64,000 nt of DNA, taken from the IMG/VR virus record IMGVR_UViG_3300045988_010396, positions 37,395 to 101,394 of that record. The stretch is one strand, 5' to 3'. The translations under genes were made by a program, and so were the position numbers. The stretch is from a virus. Below, one piece after another: positions 4,010 through 16,305 of the stretch; position 1 is the first letter of the stretch; each line of letters begins with the position of its first letter. The notes beneath the pieces were generated by a model. That model was not told the origin of the DNA, did no database searches, and saw only the letters and a program-made list of their open reading frames with translations.

Positions 4010-4095
4010 ACTCCCTTAGCTCAGTTGGTTCCGCAAGGCTTGAGAGCATCGGACTTTTAATCCGAGGGTCATGGGTTCGAGTCCCATAGGGAGTA
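4010..4095 (+). tRNA. tRNA-Lys(UUU) with a 12-nt insertion in the D-loop
   Basis: Acceptor ACTCCCT/AGGGAGT 7 bp; D-stem GCTC/GAGC; anticodon stem TCGGA/TCCGA with loop CTTTTAA; T-arm ATGGG-TTCGAGT-CCCAT. The extra CCGCAAGGCTTG lies between the D-loop GGTT and the 3' D-stem. Confidence 0.7.
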
Positions 4096-4112
4096 CTATT
4101 CATTTCATTCAA

Positions 4113-4432
4113 GGGGCTGTATTTGGTCTTGACTGGTGGCTACTTGGTATGAGGACATGCAGAGACTGATGGAGAGACATCAAAACTTTAGGTGGCAACA
4201 GAATTTCTGCACCTGTAGCTCTTGCTGCTTAAGCAATCTACTGAGTTAGTCACTGACTTGGAAACAGAATAGTGACAAGACAAGATTTCTTGCATAGATA
4301 AATGCAAGTGGTGGACTATGTTGACAATCCAGTCAACCCCAGCAGAGAACCAACTGCATAATAAAGTGGTAAGCATGTGTAATCCTTATATTGAGAGCTA
4401 TTAGGACAGGGGTTCGACTCCCCTCAGCTCCA
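4113..4432 (+). ncRNA. ssrA: tmRNA (SsrA); tag ORF ...GGNRISAPVALAA*
   Basis: 5' end GGGGCTGTATTTGGTCTTGACTGG against E. coli GGGGCTGATTCTGGATTCGACGGG. 3' end GGACAGGGGTTCGACTCCCCTCAGCTCCA against GGACGCGGGTTCAACTCCCGCCAGCTCCA. Includes the G3:U wobble alanine identity pair. Internal reading frame ggc aac aga att tct gca cct gta gct ctt gct gct taa. Confidence 0.8.
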
Positions 4433-4508
4433 GAGGCACGTTGTTAGATACTTCCACGTAGTGTGCCTTGGGTTAAAAGCTAGATTCTAACAAAAAAAAA
4501 AAGATTAT

Positions 4509-4811
4509 ATGTTAATAACAGAAAGAGCAAAAAGGAAAATAAATACTTTATTAGATAGTACTAATGATTGTATAAACTATCCTAAAACTAATAAAGATGG
4601 TTATGGGGATATTCAAGAGATTGTGGAGGGTAAAAAGCTCCACATGTTAGCTCATAGAGTATCTTATCAGTTATATACAGGAGAAGACATATCACCTGAT
4701 GATATAATATGTCATAGATGTGATAATCCTGCTTGTATTAATCCTAGACATTTGTTCAGAGGCACTCACTCAGATAATATTAAAGATAAGGTTTGTACCC
4801 ATTATTCATAA
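4509..4811 (+). CDS. HNH homing endonuclease
   Basis: Motif [14 protein letters not shown] and downstream HSDN (HNH fold). Confidence 0.7.
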
Positions 4812-5107
4812 GCGGTCGTAGCATAATTAGCGGTGACGCGGTAGTGGAATCCAATTACGACTATATTGTTTTCAAGAACTGGTGGTCATCAGGAAGATAC
4901 TTTACATGGACTAGAAGCAATGATATGTGGTGTGTTGGATGCTTCTACGGCACGGGCAAGGAGCTAATCGCTAAAGCCTACAAGGACAGCAAGGTGAGTG
5001 GTAGAGAGTATGAGAGAATAGTCAAATATGTAGAGCGGATTAAGAGAGACAGCAAGCCATCTTTGTGGCGGAGAATACTGTTTAATCTTAGCAAGCTCTG
5101 CAAATAG
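4793..5107 (+). CDS. Hypothetical protein, 104 aa
   Basis: ORF overlapping the HNH gene end; may be its C-terminal extension in another frame. Confidence 0.3.
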
Positions 5108-5611: not shown

Positions 5612-7035
5612 ATGTGTTCAAAAGTTAATCCTAACCTAAAGCCTGTACCTAAGTTTGAAAACACTCAACTGGCAGGTGGTTATGGTGCATTAGCTGCCAG
5701 GCAGTCCAATGTAGCATTGCTTAGAAGAGCAGTGCTGGCTAATCTCCTTTGAGAGGATGTAGCATATATGGATGGTGAGAGAGTAGCCAATGAAATACAG
5801 AGGTTAATACCTCTGTGCCCTGCTGAGGATGTATATAATATAGCTCTTGAAGCTAGGTTAATGCAGAAACTGAGGCATACTCCATTGTTTATAGCAGTGG
5901 AAATGTGCAAGTATCCTGAACATAAGTTATTTGTTAAGGACTTGCTACCAAAGATAGTTACAAGAGCTGATATGCTCACTGACTTCTTGGCTATATATAT
6001 ATATATTGGAAGGATGGCAAGCATCCTATCTGTAACCAAGCTAAGAAGGGTCTTGCTCTAGCCTTCCACAACTTCAATGAGTATAAGTTGGCTAAGTATG
6101 ACAGAGATGCTGCTATCAAGCTCAGGGATGTGATGTTCTTGGTACATGCAAAGCCTAGAAACCAGTATGAGCAGGAGTTGTTCAATAAGGTAGCTGAGAG
6201 AACTCTCACACCACCTGAGACATGGGAAGTCATGTTAAGTAGAGGTGATGACAAGAAGGCTACTTGGACTAAGCTCATTACAGAGGGTAAGATTGGAGGT
6301 CTGGCTATGTTGAGAAACATAGCTAATATGCAGAAGGCCAATGTGGATAGAAGGACTATCCAAGATGGCCTTAAGACACTGAGAAGCTCAATGCTATTAC
6401 CTCTTGACTTCTGGAAGGCTGCTAGAATGAACCCAGCATTTGAGAGAGACATTGAGGATGCTATGATAGAGGCATATAAGAACTTACCTAAACTTCCTGG
6501 CAAGACACTATTTATAGTGGATGTATCAGGTTCTATGGGTTTTTTAACCTCTGGTAGCTCTCAGTTCAACAGGATGGACCAAGCTTGTGCTATGGCTATC
6601 TTGGCAGCTAATCAGTGTGAGGACTATGAGCTTGTAGCTACAGCAGGTAATGATGATTCTAAAATAAGTGCCTCAGAGTGGATTGAATATCCAAAGAGAG
6701 GTTTTGCTCTTGCTCCACAGATAATGGATACCAGGCATAGGATTAGTGGTGGAGGTATATTCACCAGGCAGTGCCTAGAGTGGTGTAAGGATAAGTTCAA
6801 AGACAAGAAGTTTGATAGAATTATCATATTCTCAGACTCTCAAGACTGTGACTATCCTGAGAAGAGAGTACCTAAACCATTTGGTACATATAACTATATT
6901 GTAGATGTATCTGCTCATACAAGAGGAGTGAACTACAAGGGTGTATGGACTGCTGAGGTTTCAGGCTGGTCAGAACATTTCTTGACTTATATTGCAGCTC
7001 TTGAGGGATTGCAGAATAAGTTTGAGGAGCAATAA
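5612..7035 (+). pseudogene. rsr: Ro60/Rsr-like protein (TROVE domain plus vWA), interrupted by an in-frame TGA at 5750-5752 and a frameshift at the TA tract 5992-6006
   Basis: N-terminus VNPNLKPVPKFENTQLAGGYG resembles human Ro60 VNQMQPLNEKQIANSQDGY. Other TROVE matches: HTPLFIAVEMC to QEPMLFALAIC; KLRDVMFLVHAKP to KDLLRLSHLKP; GGLAMLRNIANMQKA to MPLTALLRNLGKMTA. The vWA MIDAS motif is FIVDVSGSM. The track ORF 6088 starts at TTG; homology continues upstream to the TA tract. Confidence 0.65.
5992..6006. repeat. (TA)7T dinucleotide tract inside the rsr-like gene
   Basis: tatatatatatatat. Loss of one TA unit fuses the frame-2 ORF 5768-6061 with the frame-1 ORF ending at 7035. Confidence 0.8.
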
Positions 7036-7042
7036 ATAAAAA

Positions 7043-7116
7043 GAGCCTATAAGTGAAAGTCAGAGTTACTTCAATATTGGGATATTTTGACACTCTGACA
7101 AAGTGTTCTATAGGCT
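7043..7116 (+). repeat. Free-standing copy A of the conserved AGTG...TTACTTCAA structured element (nested hairpins)
   Basis: Outer stem AGCCTATA/TATAGGCT and inner stem GTCAGAGT/ACTCTGAC around TACTTCAAT. The same core motif as the tRNA intervening sequences. Confidence 0.5.
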
Positions 7117-7187
7117 TTTAAGCTCTTCTATAGTTAGAAAGAGTTTCGAGACCCGATTGCCTTTGATGCATCTCGGGTCTTGCGATG

Positions 7188-7321
7188 GAGGAGTTAGCTC
7201 AGAGGTTAGAGCAGTTAAACAAGACACTCTACATACTGTTCTCTAGTAATAGTAGTGATTTGTAGAGATACTTCAAGCACTTTCATTGCACAGGTCATAG
7301 GTTCGAGTCCTATACTCCTCC
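7188..7321 (+). tRNA. tRNA-Glu(UUC) gene carrying a 61-nt intervening sequence (about 7216-7276) in the anticodon stem
   Basis: Acceptor GAGGAGT/ACTCCTC; D-arm GCTC-AGAGGTTA-GAGC; T-arm ATAGG-TTCGAGT-CCTAT. The anticodon loop CTTTCAT and 3' stem TGCAC get a perfect 5' stem GTGCA only if 7216-7276 is removed. Confidence 0.65.
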
Positions 7322-7385
7322 CAACTTTGTTGGATTTTGTGTGTTTTACCTCACTGGTATGTGAATATAGGTGAGGTTTTTACAA

Positions 7386-7524
7386 GGCGGAGTAGCTAAA
7401 TGGTTAAAGCAACACCCTTACAGAATTTATCTGGTAAAGCAGTAGTGGGTTGTCAGGGTTACTTCAAGGTTATAGCATTAGTTTTGGGTGCTAAAGAATG
7501 TAAGTTCGAGTCTTACCTCCGCCA
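7386..7524 (+). tRNA. tRNA-Pro(UGG) gene carrying a 66-nt intervening sequence (7407-7472 or 7412-7477) in the D-arm or at the 26/27 junction
   Basis: Acceptor GGCGGAG/CTCCGCC; D-stem GCT(A); intact anticodon arm TTAGT-TTTGGGT-GCTAA at 7478-7494; T-arm GTAAG-TTCGAGT-CTTAC. Confidence 0.65.
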
Positions 7525-7733
7525 CTTATTTACCTACCTCACCTAGCATAGTTATACAGGATAAGACCCATTATGATGGAGCACCGATGAAACTATCCTA
7601 GCCACGCTGGTATTGCTATTCAGTGAGTGAGAAAATGAATAGCCTCGAAGCATAGTGGAGATAACGTCAAGGAGTACCATCCTTAGCAGCTATGTAAAAT
7701 TGGTTGACAATCTGGAAAGACAGATAATAAAAT

Positions 7734-7861
7734 GGGGGAGTAGCTAAATTGGTTACTATACTCTTGCTGTTATTCTCTGGAAGCAGTAGTGTTAGCAAAG
7801 AGTTACTTCAAGCATTCATCTGGTAAATGAAAGTATATTGGTTCGAGTCCAATCTCCCCCG
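7734..7861 (+). tRNA. tRNA-Thr(GGU) gene carrying a 56-nt intervening sequence (about 7755-7810) in the D-loop before the 3' D-stem
   Basis: Acceptor GGGGGAG/CTCCCCC. The D-stem 5' GCTA and D-loop AATTGGTT are separated from the 3' D-stem AGC(A) by the insert. Anticodon arm TTCAT-CTGGTAA-ATGAA; T-arm ATTGG-TTCGAGT-CCAAT. Confidence 0.65.
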
Positions 7862-7865
7862 CAAA

Positions 7866-7999
7866 ATAGAGGTTAGTGAATGTTACAGTTACTTCAATTA
7901 TGATTAGTATATTGGTTTAACATTCAATCAAGAAAGGAGTAGATTTATTCACAACTTTTTTAACTCAACCCAACTGTGGCAGAGTTGTTCTACCTCTAT
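7866..7999 (+). repeat. Decayed copy E of the conserved element plus a degenerate tRNA-Thr 3' half
   Basis: TAGTGAAT...GTTACTTCAAT followed by GTATATTGGTTTAACATTCAAT, which resembles the T-arm of the 7734-7861 tRNA. Flanked by ATAGAGGT/ACCTCTAT. Confidence 0.4.
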
Positions 8000-8063
8000 T
8001 AAGAGGGCTATGGTAGTAATACTATAGTCCTCTTTCTTTTTGAAATTGTGTTAGCTACATATA

Positions 8064-8480
8064 TTGTATTACTTAAAAAAAAAAAGTATGGCAAAAACAA
8101 ATGAAAGTGTCGGGAGAGTCGAGGACTTGAAGGCACAAGTGAAGGACCTTCTAGGCTTAGATGCCATGATGGATGAGAGTGTGACTAAGGAAATGAAGGA
8201 CGAACTTATCGCTCAGGCTAAGAACAAAGGTGATAAGCACATCGAAGAGGTGATGGACACCATTGAGAAGGCACTTGAGAAGGTTAAGGACCCTGAGTTC
8301 AAGGCTATCATCGCCTCTATCATATGGACTAAGTGTCCTATAGGTATGCAGAAGTCCTGCATTGAGTTTCACAACAAGCTGTTGTGTGTTGCGATGGCTG
8401 CTCATATGGATAAGCAGACTAAGGGTAATTCCCTTGCAGGTCTTGCACTGCTGTCAACTGTACTTGGAGATAAGAGATAA
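8064..8480 (+). CDS. Hypothetical protein (likely start at the ATG at 8088, MAKTNES...)
   Basis: ORF following an A11 tract; Lys/Glu-rich. Confidence 0.45.
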   Translation: MYYLKKKSMAKTNESVGRVEDLKAQVKDLLGLDAMMDESVTKEMKDELIAQAKNKGDKHIEEVMDTIEKALEKVKDPEFKAIIASIIWTKCPIGMQKSCIEFHNKLLCVAMAAHMDKQTKGNSLAGLALLSTVLGDKR

Positions 8481-14949: not shown

Positions 14950-15480
14950 ATGGCAAAAGCATTGATTTTAGCTAAGACTGGGTTTGGTAAATCCAGTTCA
15001 CTGGTTGGTGTACCCTCTGCTGGTATATTAGGCTTGGACCCTAAGGAGACTTATCTCCTTAGCTGTGTTAATAAGCCTCTGCCTATCAAGGGTGCATCTA
15101 AGATTTATGTGCCTATACCTATGCAGGGTATTACTCCTGCTAACTTAGGTTCAGTCATAGGTAAGGGCAACAGGATTATCACCAAGGATGCCAAGATTGT
15201 AGCTGCTGCTATAGAGTTGCTAATCAATTCACCCTTCAAGAACATAGTAGTTGATGATATGAACTATCTATCGCAGGACTACTATATGAAGAATGCCATG
15301 AAAGGTGGTTGGGACACTCCTAAGCAGATAGGTTACAATATGGGTCTTATCTTTGACCAGATTGACAATGTGCCTGAGGATAAGAACATTATCTGTATGG
15401 CTCACTTTGAGACCTACAAGGATAAGAATGGTGACTCCATCTCTTACAAGTACAAATCAACTGGTAACATGGTAGCATAA
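14950..15480 (+). CDS. AAA_24/Sak4-like P-loop ATPase (possibly exon 1 of an intron-split gene)
   Basis: N-terminal Walker A LAKTGFGKSS; Walker B NIVVDD. Confidence 0.45.
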   Translation: MAKALILAKTGFGKSSSLVGVPSAGILGLDPKETYLLSCVNKPLPIKGASKIYVPIPMQGITPANLGSVIGKGNRIITKDAKIVAAAIELLINSPFKNIVVDDMNYLSQDYYMKNAMKGGWDTPKQIGYNMGLIFDQIDNVPEDKNIICMAHFETYKDKNGDSISYKYKSTGNMVA

Positions 15481-15690
15481 CATCTGCCATTATCTATCTA
15501 ATTGCTGGAACACCCTAAAGACAACTGAACTACAAAGTAATTGGTAACAATAAGCTTGAATGTTTGAAAATCAGTTGTATTCTTAGTGATGGAGAAATGG
15601 GCAATCAGCAGCCAAGGGACTCTACGAGTTCAAGGTTCATCGACTATCCCCTGTTGTGGGGGAGTACATTTATAAAGTAATCAATTATAT

Positions 15691-16305
15691 TTGGAAATGG
15701 TAGACAATAGAGAAGTACACATTTATGCATTAAGACATCCTGATACCTTAGAAATAAGGTATGTCGGTAAAACAGTGAGAAAATTAAGTAGAAGGTTAGG
15801 GAATCATATTGCAAATGCTAAAGGTAACCAGCACAATAAGCATTTAAGTAATTGGATTCTTAATATCTTGAAGGAAAATAAGAAACCTGTAATAGAACTC
15901 TTGGAAACTTGTCAAAGTAATAACTGGCAAGAAAGAGAGCAATATTGGATTTCTCAATTTCCTAATCTGATAAATCTCACTGCTGGAGGAGATGGATGTG
16001 TAGGTTTTATTCATGATTCTAAAGCTATAGAAAAGATTAGACAATCTAAATTTGGTACTAAACATTCTGTAGAATTTAAGGAAGCTATGAGTAAAAGGCT
16101 TAAAGGTGTGCCTCTTAGTGAAGAACATAAAAGTAAAATAGGTTTAGCTAATAAGGGAAGGAAGGCTTCGGAAACTGCAAGAAAGAGGCTATCAGAATCC
16201 CACAAAGGTATTACTCAGAGTGAGGAATCCAAAAGAAAAAGAAGTGAATCTATTAAACTTTGGTGGACTAAGAGAAAGTCTATTGAAGATATAGTCAAAT
16301 CTTAA
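15691..16305 (+). CDS. GIY-YIG homing endonuclease with NUMOD-like repeats
   Basis: IYALRHPDTLEIRYVGKT...R..NH; repeated EEHKSKIG/SESHKG units as in I-TevI-type HEGs. Confidence 0.75.
   Translation: MEMVDNREVHIYALRHPDTLEIRYVGKTVRKLSRRLGNHIANAKGNQHNKHLSNWILNILKENKKPVIELLETCQSNNWQEREQYWISQFPNLINLTAGGDGCVGFIHDSKAIEKIRQSKFGTKHSVEFKEAMSKRLKGVPLSEEHKSKIGLANKGRKASETARKRLSESHKGITQSEESKRKRSESIKLWWTKRKSIEDIVKS

What the first reader, a model, noticed from the sequence alone, without database searches (positions are those of the whole stretch)
7043..7999. Free-standing and decayed copies of the AGTG...TTACTTCAA element flank the tRNA array
The same core occurs outside the tRNA genes. Copy A at 7043-7116, right after the rsr stop, is AAGTGAAA-GTCAGAG-TTACTTCAAT. 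It folds as nested hairpins: outer stem AGCCTATA/TATAGGCT and inner stem GTCAGAGT/ACTCTGAC. Copy E at 7874-7898 is TAGTGAAT...GTTACTTCAAT, fused to a degenerate tRNA-Thr T-arm. A weaker match, CATAGTGGAGATAACGTCAAGG, lies at about 7645-7670. This indicates either repeated tandem duplication and decay of intron-bearing tRNA units, or independent insertion of a small mobile structured element. Either way the element is a distinct module under selection, not random filler.
Basis: seen in the sequence. Interest (0 to 1): 0.6.

Follow-up and report, generated by a model that had tools for sequence, protein, structure and literature searches.

The report
Phage Y-RNA genes beside Ro60

Summary
The AGTG-N-TTACTTCAA pattern occurs 5 times in 850 nt against 0.3 expected in 64 kb. 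The window is a crAss001-like phage, and the element lies just downstream of its TROVE/Ro60 gene.

The element is one structured module: outer stem P2, a bulged irregular helix (UAGUG opposite GUUCU), inner stem P1, then single-stranded UUACUUC. Across 60 distinct copies, 96.5% of pair cells are paired and 12 of 14 pairs show double changes.

- Copy A (7041-7119) is a complete minimal RNA.
- Copy E is not decayed. It is the 5' end of a complete 136-nt RNA (7865-8000).
- The weak match at 7645-7670 is not a copy.
- The three tRNA "introns" are the same module circularly permuted.

The same module flanks YrlA-like Y RNAs beside TROVE genes in Xanthomonas, Caulobacter, Rhizobium, Arthrobacter, Bacillus and gut phages.

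Best reading: this is an unannotated array of Y-RNA-type partners of the phage Ro60, and the module is the Ro-binding handle. Binding is inferred, not shown.

What appears new is the topology: a handle inserted into intact tRNAs, plus tRNA-less mini forms. I rate it a new variant of a known kind.

The parts
5612..7035 (+). TROVE/Ro60 (rsr-like) gene. In this genome it is disrupted by TGG->TGA at 5750-5752 and a +8 nt (TA)n expansion at 5992-5999.
   Evidence: Frames. Pfam TROVE and vWA_Ro60. About 75% amino-acid identity to crAss001 gp96. Both lesions are absent from L047 and other relatives.
7041..7119 (+). Copy A, a minimal free-standing Y-like RNA. Segments: P2a 7041-7050; AAGTGAAA 7051-7058; P1b 7059-7065; TTACTTC 7066-7072; short apical hairpin; P1a 7093-7099; AAAGTGTTCT 7100-7109; P2b 7110-7119.
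   Evidence: (59 bits). No differences from L047.
7188..7321 (+). tRNA #1 (anticodon loop CUUUCAU, UUC), with G-1/C73. It carries the permuted handle as a 61-nt insert at 7216-7276, between tRNA positions 28 and 29. Insert segments: P1a 7227-7233; TACTGTTCT; P2 hairpin 7243-7252; TAGTGATT; P1b 7261-7267; ATACTTC 7268-7274.
   Evidence: Rfam tRNA 43 bits across the insert. Removing the block gives 21/21 cloverleaf pairs and 7/7 conserved nucleotides. Coordinates.
7386..7524 (+). tRNA #2 (UGG) with the permuted handle. Segments: P1a 7415-7422; hairpin 7431-7442; TAGTG 7443-7447; P1b 7451-7458; TTACTTC 7459-7465. The conserved C of UUCU is mutated to A at 7429 in this genome only.
   Evidence: ARAGORN calls only the 3' part, 7452-7525.
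7526..7733 (+). It is not a copy of the module.
7734..7861 (+). tRNA #3 (GGU) with the permuted handle inside the D arm. Segments: P1a 7761-7768; GTTATTCT; hairpin 7777-7786; TAGTGTT; P1b 7794-7802; TTACTTC 7803-7809.
   Evidence: z = -3.1; the MFE holds both the tRNA arms and the handle.
7865..8000 (+). Copy E, a complete long free-standing Y-like RNA. Segments: P2a 7865-7873; TAGTGAA 7874-7880; P1b 7881-7888; TTACTTC 7889-7895; 78-nt apical domain with a degenerate T-arm (7906-7929) and the invariant AAGAAAGGAGTAGATTT; P1a 7974-7981; GAGTTGTTCT 7982-7991; P2b 7992-8000.
   Evidence: (39 bits). Compensatory changes in crAss001 and other clades.
8001..8044 (+). Intrinsic terminator closing the TROVE plus ncRNA unit.
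   Evidence: 15-bp stem followed by TCTTTTTG. A syntenic hairpin is present in crAss001.

Best explanation
The 1 kb between the TROVE/Ro60 gene and the terminator at 8001-8044 is an array of Y-RNA-type non-coding RNA genes. The AGTG...TTACTTCAA element is their shared protein-binding handle.

The handle, in free-standing order:
- P2, the outer stem.
- A bulged nucleotide, then a short irregular helix in which 5'-RGUG faces 5'-UUCY. This gives an R-Y pair, a G-C pair, a U.U mismatch and a G.U wobble.
- P1, an inner stem of about 8 bp.
- The invariant single-stranded heptamer UUACUUC.
- A variable apical domain.

Three versions occur in this window:
- Copy A is a minimal RNA with only a small apical hairpin.
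- Copy E is a long RNA whose apical domain is a degenerate, re-ordered remnant of a tRNA.
- In the three tRNA genes the same handle is circularly permuted. P2 is capped by a small hairpin loop (4-6 nt, e.g. GUAA), and P1 opens into the tRNA between the D loop and the 5' strand of the anticodon stem. The result is a complete tRNA carrying a side arm.

Inferred mechanism: the phage Ro60 ring binds the handle, as Ro60 binds the conserved bulged stem of Y RNAs. The variable or tRNA part then presents a second ligand, as the effector-binding domains of known Y RNAs do: D. radiodurans Yrn1 tethers Rsr to PNPase, and YrlA carries a tRNA-like effector-binding domain whose partner is unknown.

Shown here: the structure, its conservation, its linkage to TROVE across phage lineages, and the permutation. 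Inferred: Ro60 binding, the effector, and that the handle stays in the mature tRNAs.
For: 1. Non-random clustering. Five motif hits against 0.3 expected. A structural descriptor finds only 7041-7119 and 7865-8000 in the 64 kb, and nothing in 50 shuffles.
2. Covariation on 60 distinct copies, free-standing plus re-ordered embedded. 96.5% of cells are paired against 67.5% in shuffles and 31-59% when partners are slid. 12 of 14 pairs have double changes, in 228 cells. The A of UAGUG and the last U of UUCU switch together to G and C in 8 sequences.
3. TROVE linkage. All 49 crAss001-like loci carry 1-5 copies only downstream of TROVE.
4. The same module in distant TROVE-encoding phages, on the TROVE strand: Xanthomonas (UGGUGUA...UUACUUC...GUUCC), Caulobacter (UGGCGUA), gut phage csAssE-Sib, Rhizobium (UUGCGAA), Arthrobacter (AGUG/AGCGC) and Bacillus G (AGCGG). 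In four of them (Xanthomonas, Caulobacter, csAssE-Sib, Rhizobium) Rfam YrlA (RF02553) hits at E = 1e-8 to 0.09 overlap module instances; in Arthrobacter one module instance encloses a YrlA hit; Bacillus G has no YrlA hit.
5. A covariance model trained only on crAss copies finds mini Y-like RNAs beside TROVE in the Xanthomonas phage (27.6 bits, E = 8e-4) and the Arthrobacter phage (22.8 bits, E = 0.013).
6. The motif series GGCGAA (Rfam YrlA consensus), UGCGAA, GGCGUA, GGUGUA, AGUGUA/AGUGAA places AGUG at the position of the published Ro-binding GNCGAA motif (PMC4201824).
7. The ncRNA block is the most conserved stretch locally.
8. The protein is a Ro60 homologue: Pfam TROVE and vWA_Ro60. The best PDB match is Thermus phage phiRo60, solved with its Y-like RNA (9L5Y), E = 2.6e-12 (PMC12135203).
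Against: - No binding or expression data exist.
- Rfam YrlA gives no hit in 6950-8100, even at E <= 10.
- The literal GNCGAA motif is absent.
- The Rfam model aligns P1/UUACU, not AGUG, to its stem A/AUGCU. Which motif corresponds to the canonical Ro site is therefore ambiguous.
- P1 and P2 were located by a parser that searched for complementarity. This inflates the percentage paired, though not the number of pair types or the slid controls.
- The embedded tRNAs become perfect cloverleaves once the handle is removed, and they keep canonical anticodon loops. That is also what a spliced intron would predict.
- The TROVE gene of this particular genome is broken.
Confidence: 0.75

Rival explanations
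1. The module is a small intron or insertion element that invaded tRNA genes and is removed from the pre-tRNA, either by itself or by a protein (possibly with Ro60 or a host ligase). The free-standing copies would be solo elements.
For: - Removing one block of 53-67 nt restores 21/21 cloverleaf pairs and all 7 conserved nucleotides in all three window tRNAs, and 20-21/21 in most of the 71 distinct relatives scanned (lowest genuine case 18/21).
- The insertion point varies: anticodon-stem 5' strand, D-stem 3' strand, D loop.
- tRNA #2 has a duplicated D-arm segment flanking the insert (AATGGTTAAAGCA and AAGGTTATAGCA).
- Anticodon loops stay canonical while the anticodons change.
Against: - The free-standing copies are circular permutations with different ends, not copies of the insert.
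- No ribozyme or group I family matches the region, and 53-67 nt is too small for a group I or group II intron.
- The 5' junction lies 2-16 nt from P1, at no fixed distance.
- The same module flanks YrlA-like RNAs in phages that have no interrupted tRNAs.
- One tRNA body (G-1/C73) carries Glu, Lys, Ser or His anticodons in different relatives. That is odd for decoding tRNAs.
Confidence: 0.12
2. Copies A and E are non-functional leftovers from tandem duplication and decay of handle-bearing tRNA units.
For: - Copy E's apical domain contains a degenerate T-arm (a 12-nt identity with tRNA #3) and a GGAGTAG... piece resembling a tRNA 5' end.
- The array is recombinogenic. Hybrids joined at the TTACTTC motif occur in L033 and L026.
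Against: - Copies A and E are syntenic across the genus.
- Both stems are kept by compensatory changes.
- They have no differences from L047, while neighbouring coding DNA differs by 3-6%.
- Both score as full-length matches to the model.
Confidence: 0.08
3. The similarity arises by chance in AT-rich DNA, or the hairpins are ordinary terminators or attenuators.
For: Copy A directly follows the TROVE stop codon, and the 3' strand of its outer stem ends in TTTT.
Against. The internal motifs are conserved from Bacteroides to Arthrobacter phages. The real terminator is at 8001-8044.
Confidence: 0.02

Closest known systems
YrlA (Rfam RF02553), bacterial and phage Y RNAs with a tRNA-like domain (Chen et al. 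2014, PMC4201824; Wang et al. 2018, bioRxiv 10.1101/312249)
   Same: - Encoded next to the Ro60/TROVE gene and on the same strand.
- Terminal stem, internal loop, stem architecture that carries conserved nucleotides.
- A tRNA or tRNA-like part attached to it.
- Arrays of several copies.
- Phage relatives that do hit RF02553 carry the same UUACUUC and RGYG/UUCY handle.
   Different: - No RF02553 hit in this window.
- The literal GNCGAAN0-1G motif is replaced by AGUG(A/U)A and UUACUUC.
- There is an extra outer stem, P2.
- YrlA is a circularly permuted tRNA with a closed acceptor stem and no anticodon loop. Here the tRNAs keep open acceptor ends and full anticodon arms, and it is the handle that is permuted and inserted.
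- Copy A has no tRNA-like domain at all.
Thermus phage phiLo Yrl1/Yrl2 with phiRo60 (PMC12135203; PDB 9KOP, 9L5Y)
   Same: - A phage Ro60 with Y-like RNAs found beside the gene.
- 5'-3' stem, bulge, stem layout.
- The protein is the best solved-structure match to the crAss001 TROVE protein.
   Different: - Those RNAs carry the CGAA motif and lie upstream of the gene.
- No tRNA grafts are described there.
Metazoan Y RNAs and D. radiodurans Yrn1
   Same: Ro60 binds a conserved bulged helix formed by the 5' and 3' ends, and the loop recruits other factors (summarised in PMC4201824 and PMC12135203).
   Different: No detectable sequence homology was tested here. From memory only, human Y1 also reads UAGUG-A-GUUAUCUC. 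That is a lead, not a test.
tRNA introns (bacterial/phage group I; archaeal bulge-helix-bulge) and permuted tRNA genes
   Same: They interrupt otherwise canonical tRNAs, and archaeal introns also occur at non-canonical positions (own knowledge).
   Different: - No group I core is present.
- The size is 53-67 nt.
- No fixed junction geometry is seen.
- The element also exists as stand-alone, permuted RNAs linked to TROVE.

Membership tests
YrlA / Y RNA-like (RF02553) | Encoded within about 4 kb of a Ro60/TROVE gene, on the same strand | tested here: met
   The TROVE stop codon is at 7033-7035. The RNAs span 7041-8000 on the + strand. The same layout is seen in 49 relatives.
YrlA / Y RNA-like (RF02553) | Match to the Rfam covariance model at its gathering score (69 bits) | tested here: not met
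   No YrlA hit in 6950-8100 at E <= 10, and none in L036. Related phage RNAs with the same handle reach only 25-50 bits.
YrlA / Y RNA-like (RF02553) | GNCGAAN0-1G motif in the Ro-binding stem | tested here: inconclusive
   The literal motif is absent. AGUGAAAG (copy A) and AGUGUA sit at the equivalent place, and intermediates link them to the motif: UGCGAA, GGCGUA, GGUGUA. However, the Rfam model instead aligns UUACU to its AUGCU loop.
YrlA / Y RNA-like (RF02553) | 5' and 3' ends pair, giving stem, internal loop, stem | tested here: met
   Copies A and E.
YrlA / Y RNA-like (RF02553) | Permuted tRNA-like domain: T arm, closed acceptor-like stem-loop, D arm | tested here: not met
   Copy A has only a 19-nt apical hairpin. 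Copy E has a degenerate T-arm and no tRNA or YrlA model hit. The embedded forms are non-permuted full tRNAs.
YrlA / Y RNA-like (RF02553) | Bound by the Ro60 protein | not testable with these tools
   Requires co-immunoprecipitation or gel-shift with crAss001 gp96.
tRNA (RF00005), for the three host genes | Cloverleaf with conserved tertiary nucleotides | tested here: met
   #1 scores 43 bits across the insert. All three give 21/21 pairs and 7/7 conserved nucleotides after one deletion.
Group I intron in tRNA | Conserved catalytic core (P3-P9), usually more than 200 nt, inserted in the anticodon loop | tested here: not met
   No Intron_gpI hit in the region. The inserts are 53-67 nt and lie in the D arm or the 5' strand of the anticodon stem.
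Archaeal-type tRNA intron | Bulge-helix-bulge motif at both exon-intron junctions | not tested
   No formal search for the motif was run. The variable 5' junction distance (2-16 nt from P1) argues against it.
Small mobile element (MITE-like insertion) | All copies share the same termini, often with target-site duplications | tested here: not met
   Free-standing and inserted forms are circular permutations with different ends. Only tRNA #2 shows a duplication-like flank.

The most novel reading that the evidence does not exclude
crAss001-like phages convert genuine tRNAs into Ro60-tethered tRNAs by grafting the Y-RNA handle into the D-arm/anticodon-stem hinge.

- The handle would stay in the mature RNA. 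The phage Ro60 ring would then be coupled to specific, rapidly exchanged anticodon stem-loops (Lys-UUU, Glu-UUC, Gln-UUG, His, Thr, Pro and others, on constant bodies).
- One possible use is as decoys or sensors for host anticodon nucleases or tRNA enzymes.
- The co-existing forms would be living intermediates showing how YrlA-type Y RNAs arose from tRNAs by circular permutation. The forms are: handle inside a tRNA; tRNA nested inside the handle (L036, csAssE-Sib); a permuted tRNA remnant (copy E); and no tRNA at all (copy A).
Probability: 0.3. Interest if true: 0.85.

Novelty: new variant of a known kind. Interest (0 to 1): 0.66.

Why it matters
- Ro60 and Y RNAs are conserved from bacteria to humans, where Ro60 is a lupus and Sjogren autoantigen. 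What the tRNA-like Y RNAs do is still unknown.
- crAss-like phages are among the most abundant human gut viruses, and crAss001 is cultivable. Its TROVE gene is an early gene (PMC8375218).
- This locus offers a tractable system with several natural topologies of one handle: alone, wrapped around a tRNA, and inserted in a tRNA.
- It provides an explicit conserved motif set (RGYG/UUCY plus UUACUUC) for mutagenesis. It also provides natural material on the proposed tRNA origin of Y RNAs.
- Practically, about 1 kb that is unannotated in crAss001, cr112_1 and dozens of related genomes can now be annotated. tRNA finders miss or mis-call these genes.

Tried and rejected
- An exact-pattern scan of IMG/VR with TAGTG-N(9-12)-GTTACTTCA returned mostly single chance matches. 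It was uninformative and wasted one scan.
- A protein homologue search returned only relatives at 77% identity or more among the rows shown. It did not reach distant TROVE proteins. tblastn against the phage collection solved this.
- I considered an H-type pseudoknot pairing AGUG with UUACU. I dropped it once AGUG was found to covary with UUCY.
- I considered known self-cleaving ribozymes and group I introns. There are no Rfam hits.
- I considered a small ORF behind the Shine-Dalgarno-like AAGAAAGGAG in copy E. crAss001 has an 11-codon ATG frame there, but the window has none.
- I looked for uninterrupted orthologues of the three interrupted tRNAs, to test for insert presence/absence. None were found. 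Only unrelated normal tRNAs lie in some arrays, for example L040 2927-3000.
- Single-sequence MFE folding of copy E recovers the outer stem but not P1. P1 rests on comparative evidence.
Full report
**What the window is.** DNA from 5600-8100 matches Bacteroides phage crAss001 and its relatives (Kehishuvirus, Steigviridae) at about 74% identity. The match covers their "TROVE domain-containing / RNA-binding protein" gene. The ORF ending at 7035 carries Pfam TROVE and Ro60-type vWA domains. The crAss001 orthologue's best solved-structure match is the Ro60 of Thermus phage phiLo (9KOP, and 9L5Y with its Y-like RNA), E = 2.6e-12. In crAss001 and cr112_1 the 0.8-0.9 kb between this gene and the next CDS is unannotated.

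**Checking the observation.**
- AGTG-N(3-14)-TACTTCAA occurs five times between 7052 and 7897, all on the + strand. Only 0.30 matches are expected in the whole 64 kb.
- Copy E was under-read. The motif at 7874-7895 is the 5' half of a 136-nt element. Its partner strands lie about 80 nt downstream: P1a at 7974-7981, GAGTTGTTCT at 7982-7991 and P2b at 7992-8000.
- The weak match at 7645-7670 lacks the P1 strand and has the wrong spacing. It lies in the loop of a small hairpin with its own compensatory change, inside a separate conserved 200-nt spacer. It is not a copy.

**Anatomy of the module.** I compared the window with 49 related loci: crAss001, cr112_1 and 47 IMG/VR contigs. The module has these parts:
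- P2, an outer stem of 5-13 bp.
- A bulged nucleotide followed by RGUG on the 5' strand, facing UUCY on the 3' strand.
- P1, an inner stem of about 8 bp.
- The heptamer (U/A)UAC(U/A)UC directly 3' of P1b.
- A variable apical domain of 9-92 nt.

The tRNA inserts contain the same parts in circularly permuted order: P1a, GUUCU, a 3-bp P2 capped by a small 4-6 nt loop (GUAA, GAAG, GUAAAG), UAGUG, P1b, UUACUUC.

I built 60 distinct fixed-register constructs, with the embedded copies re-ordered to match the free-standing ones. On these:
- 96.5% of pair cells are standard pairs, against 67.5% in shuffles and 31-59% when partners are slid.
- 12 of 14 pairs have double changes, in 228 cells.
- The A of UAGUG pairs with the last U of UUCU, and the two switch together to G-C in eight sequences from both topologies.

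One caveat applies. P1 and P2 were located by a complementarity-seeking parser, which inflates the percentage paired. The diversity of pair types and the motif-anchored A-U/G-C switch are not affected by this.

**The host tRNAs.**
- Deleting one block from each gene gives a perfect cloverleaf: 21/21 pairs plus U8, A14, GG, U33, R37 and the TTCRA T-loop. The block is 61 nt (7216-7276) in #1 and 53-67 nt in #2 and #3. The anticodons are UUC, UGG and GGU.
- The insertion points all fall within tRNA positions of about 17-29, from the D loop to the 5' strand of the anticodon stem.
- Most of the 71 distinct scanned sequences from relatives behave the same way, at 20-21/21 pairs (lowest genuine case 18/21); the list also includes nested-type and a few spurious parses.
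- On a constant body, the anticodon arm is exchanged. The GAGGAGT...ACTCCTC family, with G-1 and C73, carries CUUUCAU, CUUUUAA (on three different compensated stems), UUGCUAA or AUGUGGA. Family #3 carries GGU, GAU, CAU or AUU.
- MFE folds of #2 and #3 hold the tRNA arms and the handle together.

**Link to Y RNAs.** A tblastn search shows that the nearest TROVE proteins outside this genus come from other phages. Caulobacter, Brevundimonas, Xanthomonas and Ralstonia phages are at about 36% identity, Rhizobium phages at 31%, and several others at 23-27%.
- In eight of the nine TROVE loci I fetched (Ralstonia is the exception), the heptamer (U/C/A)UACUUC lies beside the TROVE gene on its strand. 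The full module, with long P2 stems and lineage-specific versions of the two loop strands, was parsed in six lineages:
  - Xanthomonas: UGGUGUA...GUUCC
  - Caulobacter: UGGCGUA...GUUCC
  - csAssE-Sib: UGGUGA...UUUCC
  - Rhizobium: UUGCGAA...AUCU
  - Arthrobacter: AGUG or AGCGC...GUUC/UUUC
  - Bacillus G: AGCGG...AUC
  - In the archaeal virus HGTV-1, AUACUUC preceded by GUGCGAGG lies just upstream of the TROVE gene, but no long-P2 module was parsed. Vibrio Va1 gave only weak parses. Ralstonia has no heptamer in the intergenic flanks I printed and only background-level parses elsewhere.
- In four of them (Xanthomonas, Caulobacter, csAssE-Sib, Rhizobium) module instances overlap sub-threshold but significant Rfam YrlA hits (25-50 bits, E down to 1e-8); in Arthrobacter one module instance (L177 4266-4408) encloses a YrlA hit at 4309-4367; Bacillus G has none.
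- In csAssE-Sib, and in one crAss sub-clade (L036-L041, L007), a complete tRNA is nested inside the handle. The tRNA model scores 59 bits at L036 3979-4050.
- A covariance model built only from 25 crAss free-standing copies finds:
  - window 7044-7116 (59 bits);
  - window 7868-7997 (39 bits);
  - a mini RNA beside TROVE in the Xanthomonas phage (27.6 bits, E = 8e-4);
  - a mini RNA beside TROVE in the Arthrobacter phage (22.8 bits, E = 0.013);
  - nothing else credible in the 64 kb.
- The permuted, tRNA-inserted form was found 77 times in the crAss001-like loci. It was not found in the other phage lineages sampled.

**Relation to the published Ro-binding motif.** Chen et al. (PMC4201824) define GNCGAAN0-1G in the terminal stem of YrlA.
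- The series GGCGAA (Rfam consensus), UGCGAA, GGCGUA, GGUGUA, AGUGUA/AGUGAA suggests that the crAss AGUG block is the diverged form of that motif. Copy A reads AGUGAAAG.
- The heptamer follows the next stem, just as the conserved CUAC does in the Rfam consensus.
- The Rfam model itself aligns P1 to its stem A and UUACU to AUGCU. The exact correspondence is therefore unresolved. Either way, the module covers the Ro-binding end of YrlA.

**Selection.** Against L047, the closest relative:
- 7036-8100 has 5 substitutions (0.5%), and none fall in copy A, tRNA #1 or copy E.
- The TROVE gene differs by about 3%, and the flanks by 4-6%.
- One of the five substitutions (7429, C to A) hits the conserved C of UUCU in tRNA #2.
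- The window's TROVE gene carries TGG->TGA (5750-5752) and a +8 nt (TA)n expansion (5992-5999). Both are absent from all relatives. The protein partner may therefore be inactive in this genome, or these may be sequence errors.

**Interpretation.**
- Best supported: an array of Y-RNA-type genes co-transcribed with, or just after, the early TROVE gene, ending at the terminator at 8001-8044. The module would be the Ro60-binding handle. I put this at about 0.75.
- Main rival: a spliced small intron, at about 0.12. It is kept alive by the perfect exon cloverleaves. It is weakened by the permutation, by the absence of any ribozyme signature, and by the presence of the handle on YrlA-like RNAs in phages without interrupted tRNAs.
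- Decay remnants (about 0.08) and chance (about 0.02) fit poorly.

**Novelty.** Y RNAs beside phage Ro60 genes have been known since 2014 (PMC4201824; PMC12135203). I found no paper in the held library describing them in crAss-like phages. I also found none describing a handle inserted into intact tRNAs, or the UUACUUC heptamer. I therefore rate this a new variant of a known kind.

Noticed in passing
window 5750-5752 and 5992-5999: The TROVE/Ro60 gene of this genome has an in-frame TGA where all relatives have TGG (Trp). It also has an 8-nt (TA)n expansion that shifts the frame. This is either a pseudogene or sequence errors, while the RNA array downstream is intact.
   Followed up: partly
window 4113-4435: A tmRNA gene in the phage (Rfam 83 bits; also called by ARAGORN). 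Relatives carry tmRNA-like genes with different tag peptides at the syntenic place (L010, L013, L038, L046).
   Followed up: no
window 4010-4096: An 86-nt tRNA (66 bits) with anticodon loop CUUUUAA. It has an extra hairpin of about 13 nt (CCGCAAGG) in the D loop, at the same position where the handle sits in tRNA #3. ARAGORN cannot assign it. cr112_1 has a 91-nt 'tRNA-Ile' at the matching place.
   Followed up: no
window 7526-7733: A conserved, multi-hairpin spacer of about 200 nt between tRNA #2 and tRNA #3. It is present only in the window's sub-clade (84-98% identity) and shows a few compensatory changes. No Rfam match; function unknown.
   Followed up: partly
window 7929-7945 (and L001 about 4603-4619): The invariant AAGAAAGGAGTAGATTT in the apical domain of copy E is an extended Shine-Dalgarno-like purine tract with no ORF behind it in the window. 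It is partly complementary to the CTCTTTCTT on the descending arm and tail of the terminator.
   Followed up: no
L033 about 4787-4900; L026 about 4150-4230: Hybrid units in which the 5' half of one handle-bearing tRNA or free-standing RNA is joined to the 3' half of another, exactly at the TTACTTC motif. The repeated handle appears to drive recombination and copy-number change in the array.
   Followed up: partly
window 7187 and 7321; L038 4101-4231; L041 4097-4225: tRNA family #1 has G-1 opposite C73. From my own knowledge this is the bacterial tRNA-His identity mark. It carries a His (GUG) anticodon only in some relatives, and Glu, Lys or Ser anticodons in others.
   Followed up: partly
window 15380-15761: A borderline group I intron hit (51 bits against a gathering score of 50).
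   Followed up: no
window 7122-7184: A 63-nt stretch after copy A, containing an 8-bp GC-rich hairpin (AGACCCGA/TCGGGTCT). It matches an unannotated human faecal phage contig (MT837866) at 90%. In other relatives a second free-standing Y-like RNA occupies this position.
   Followed up: no
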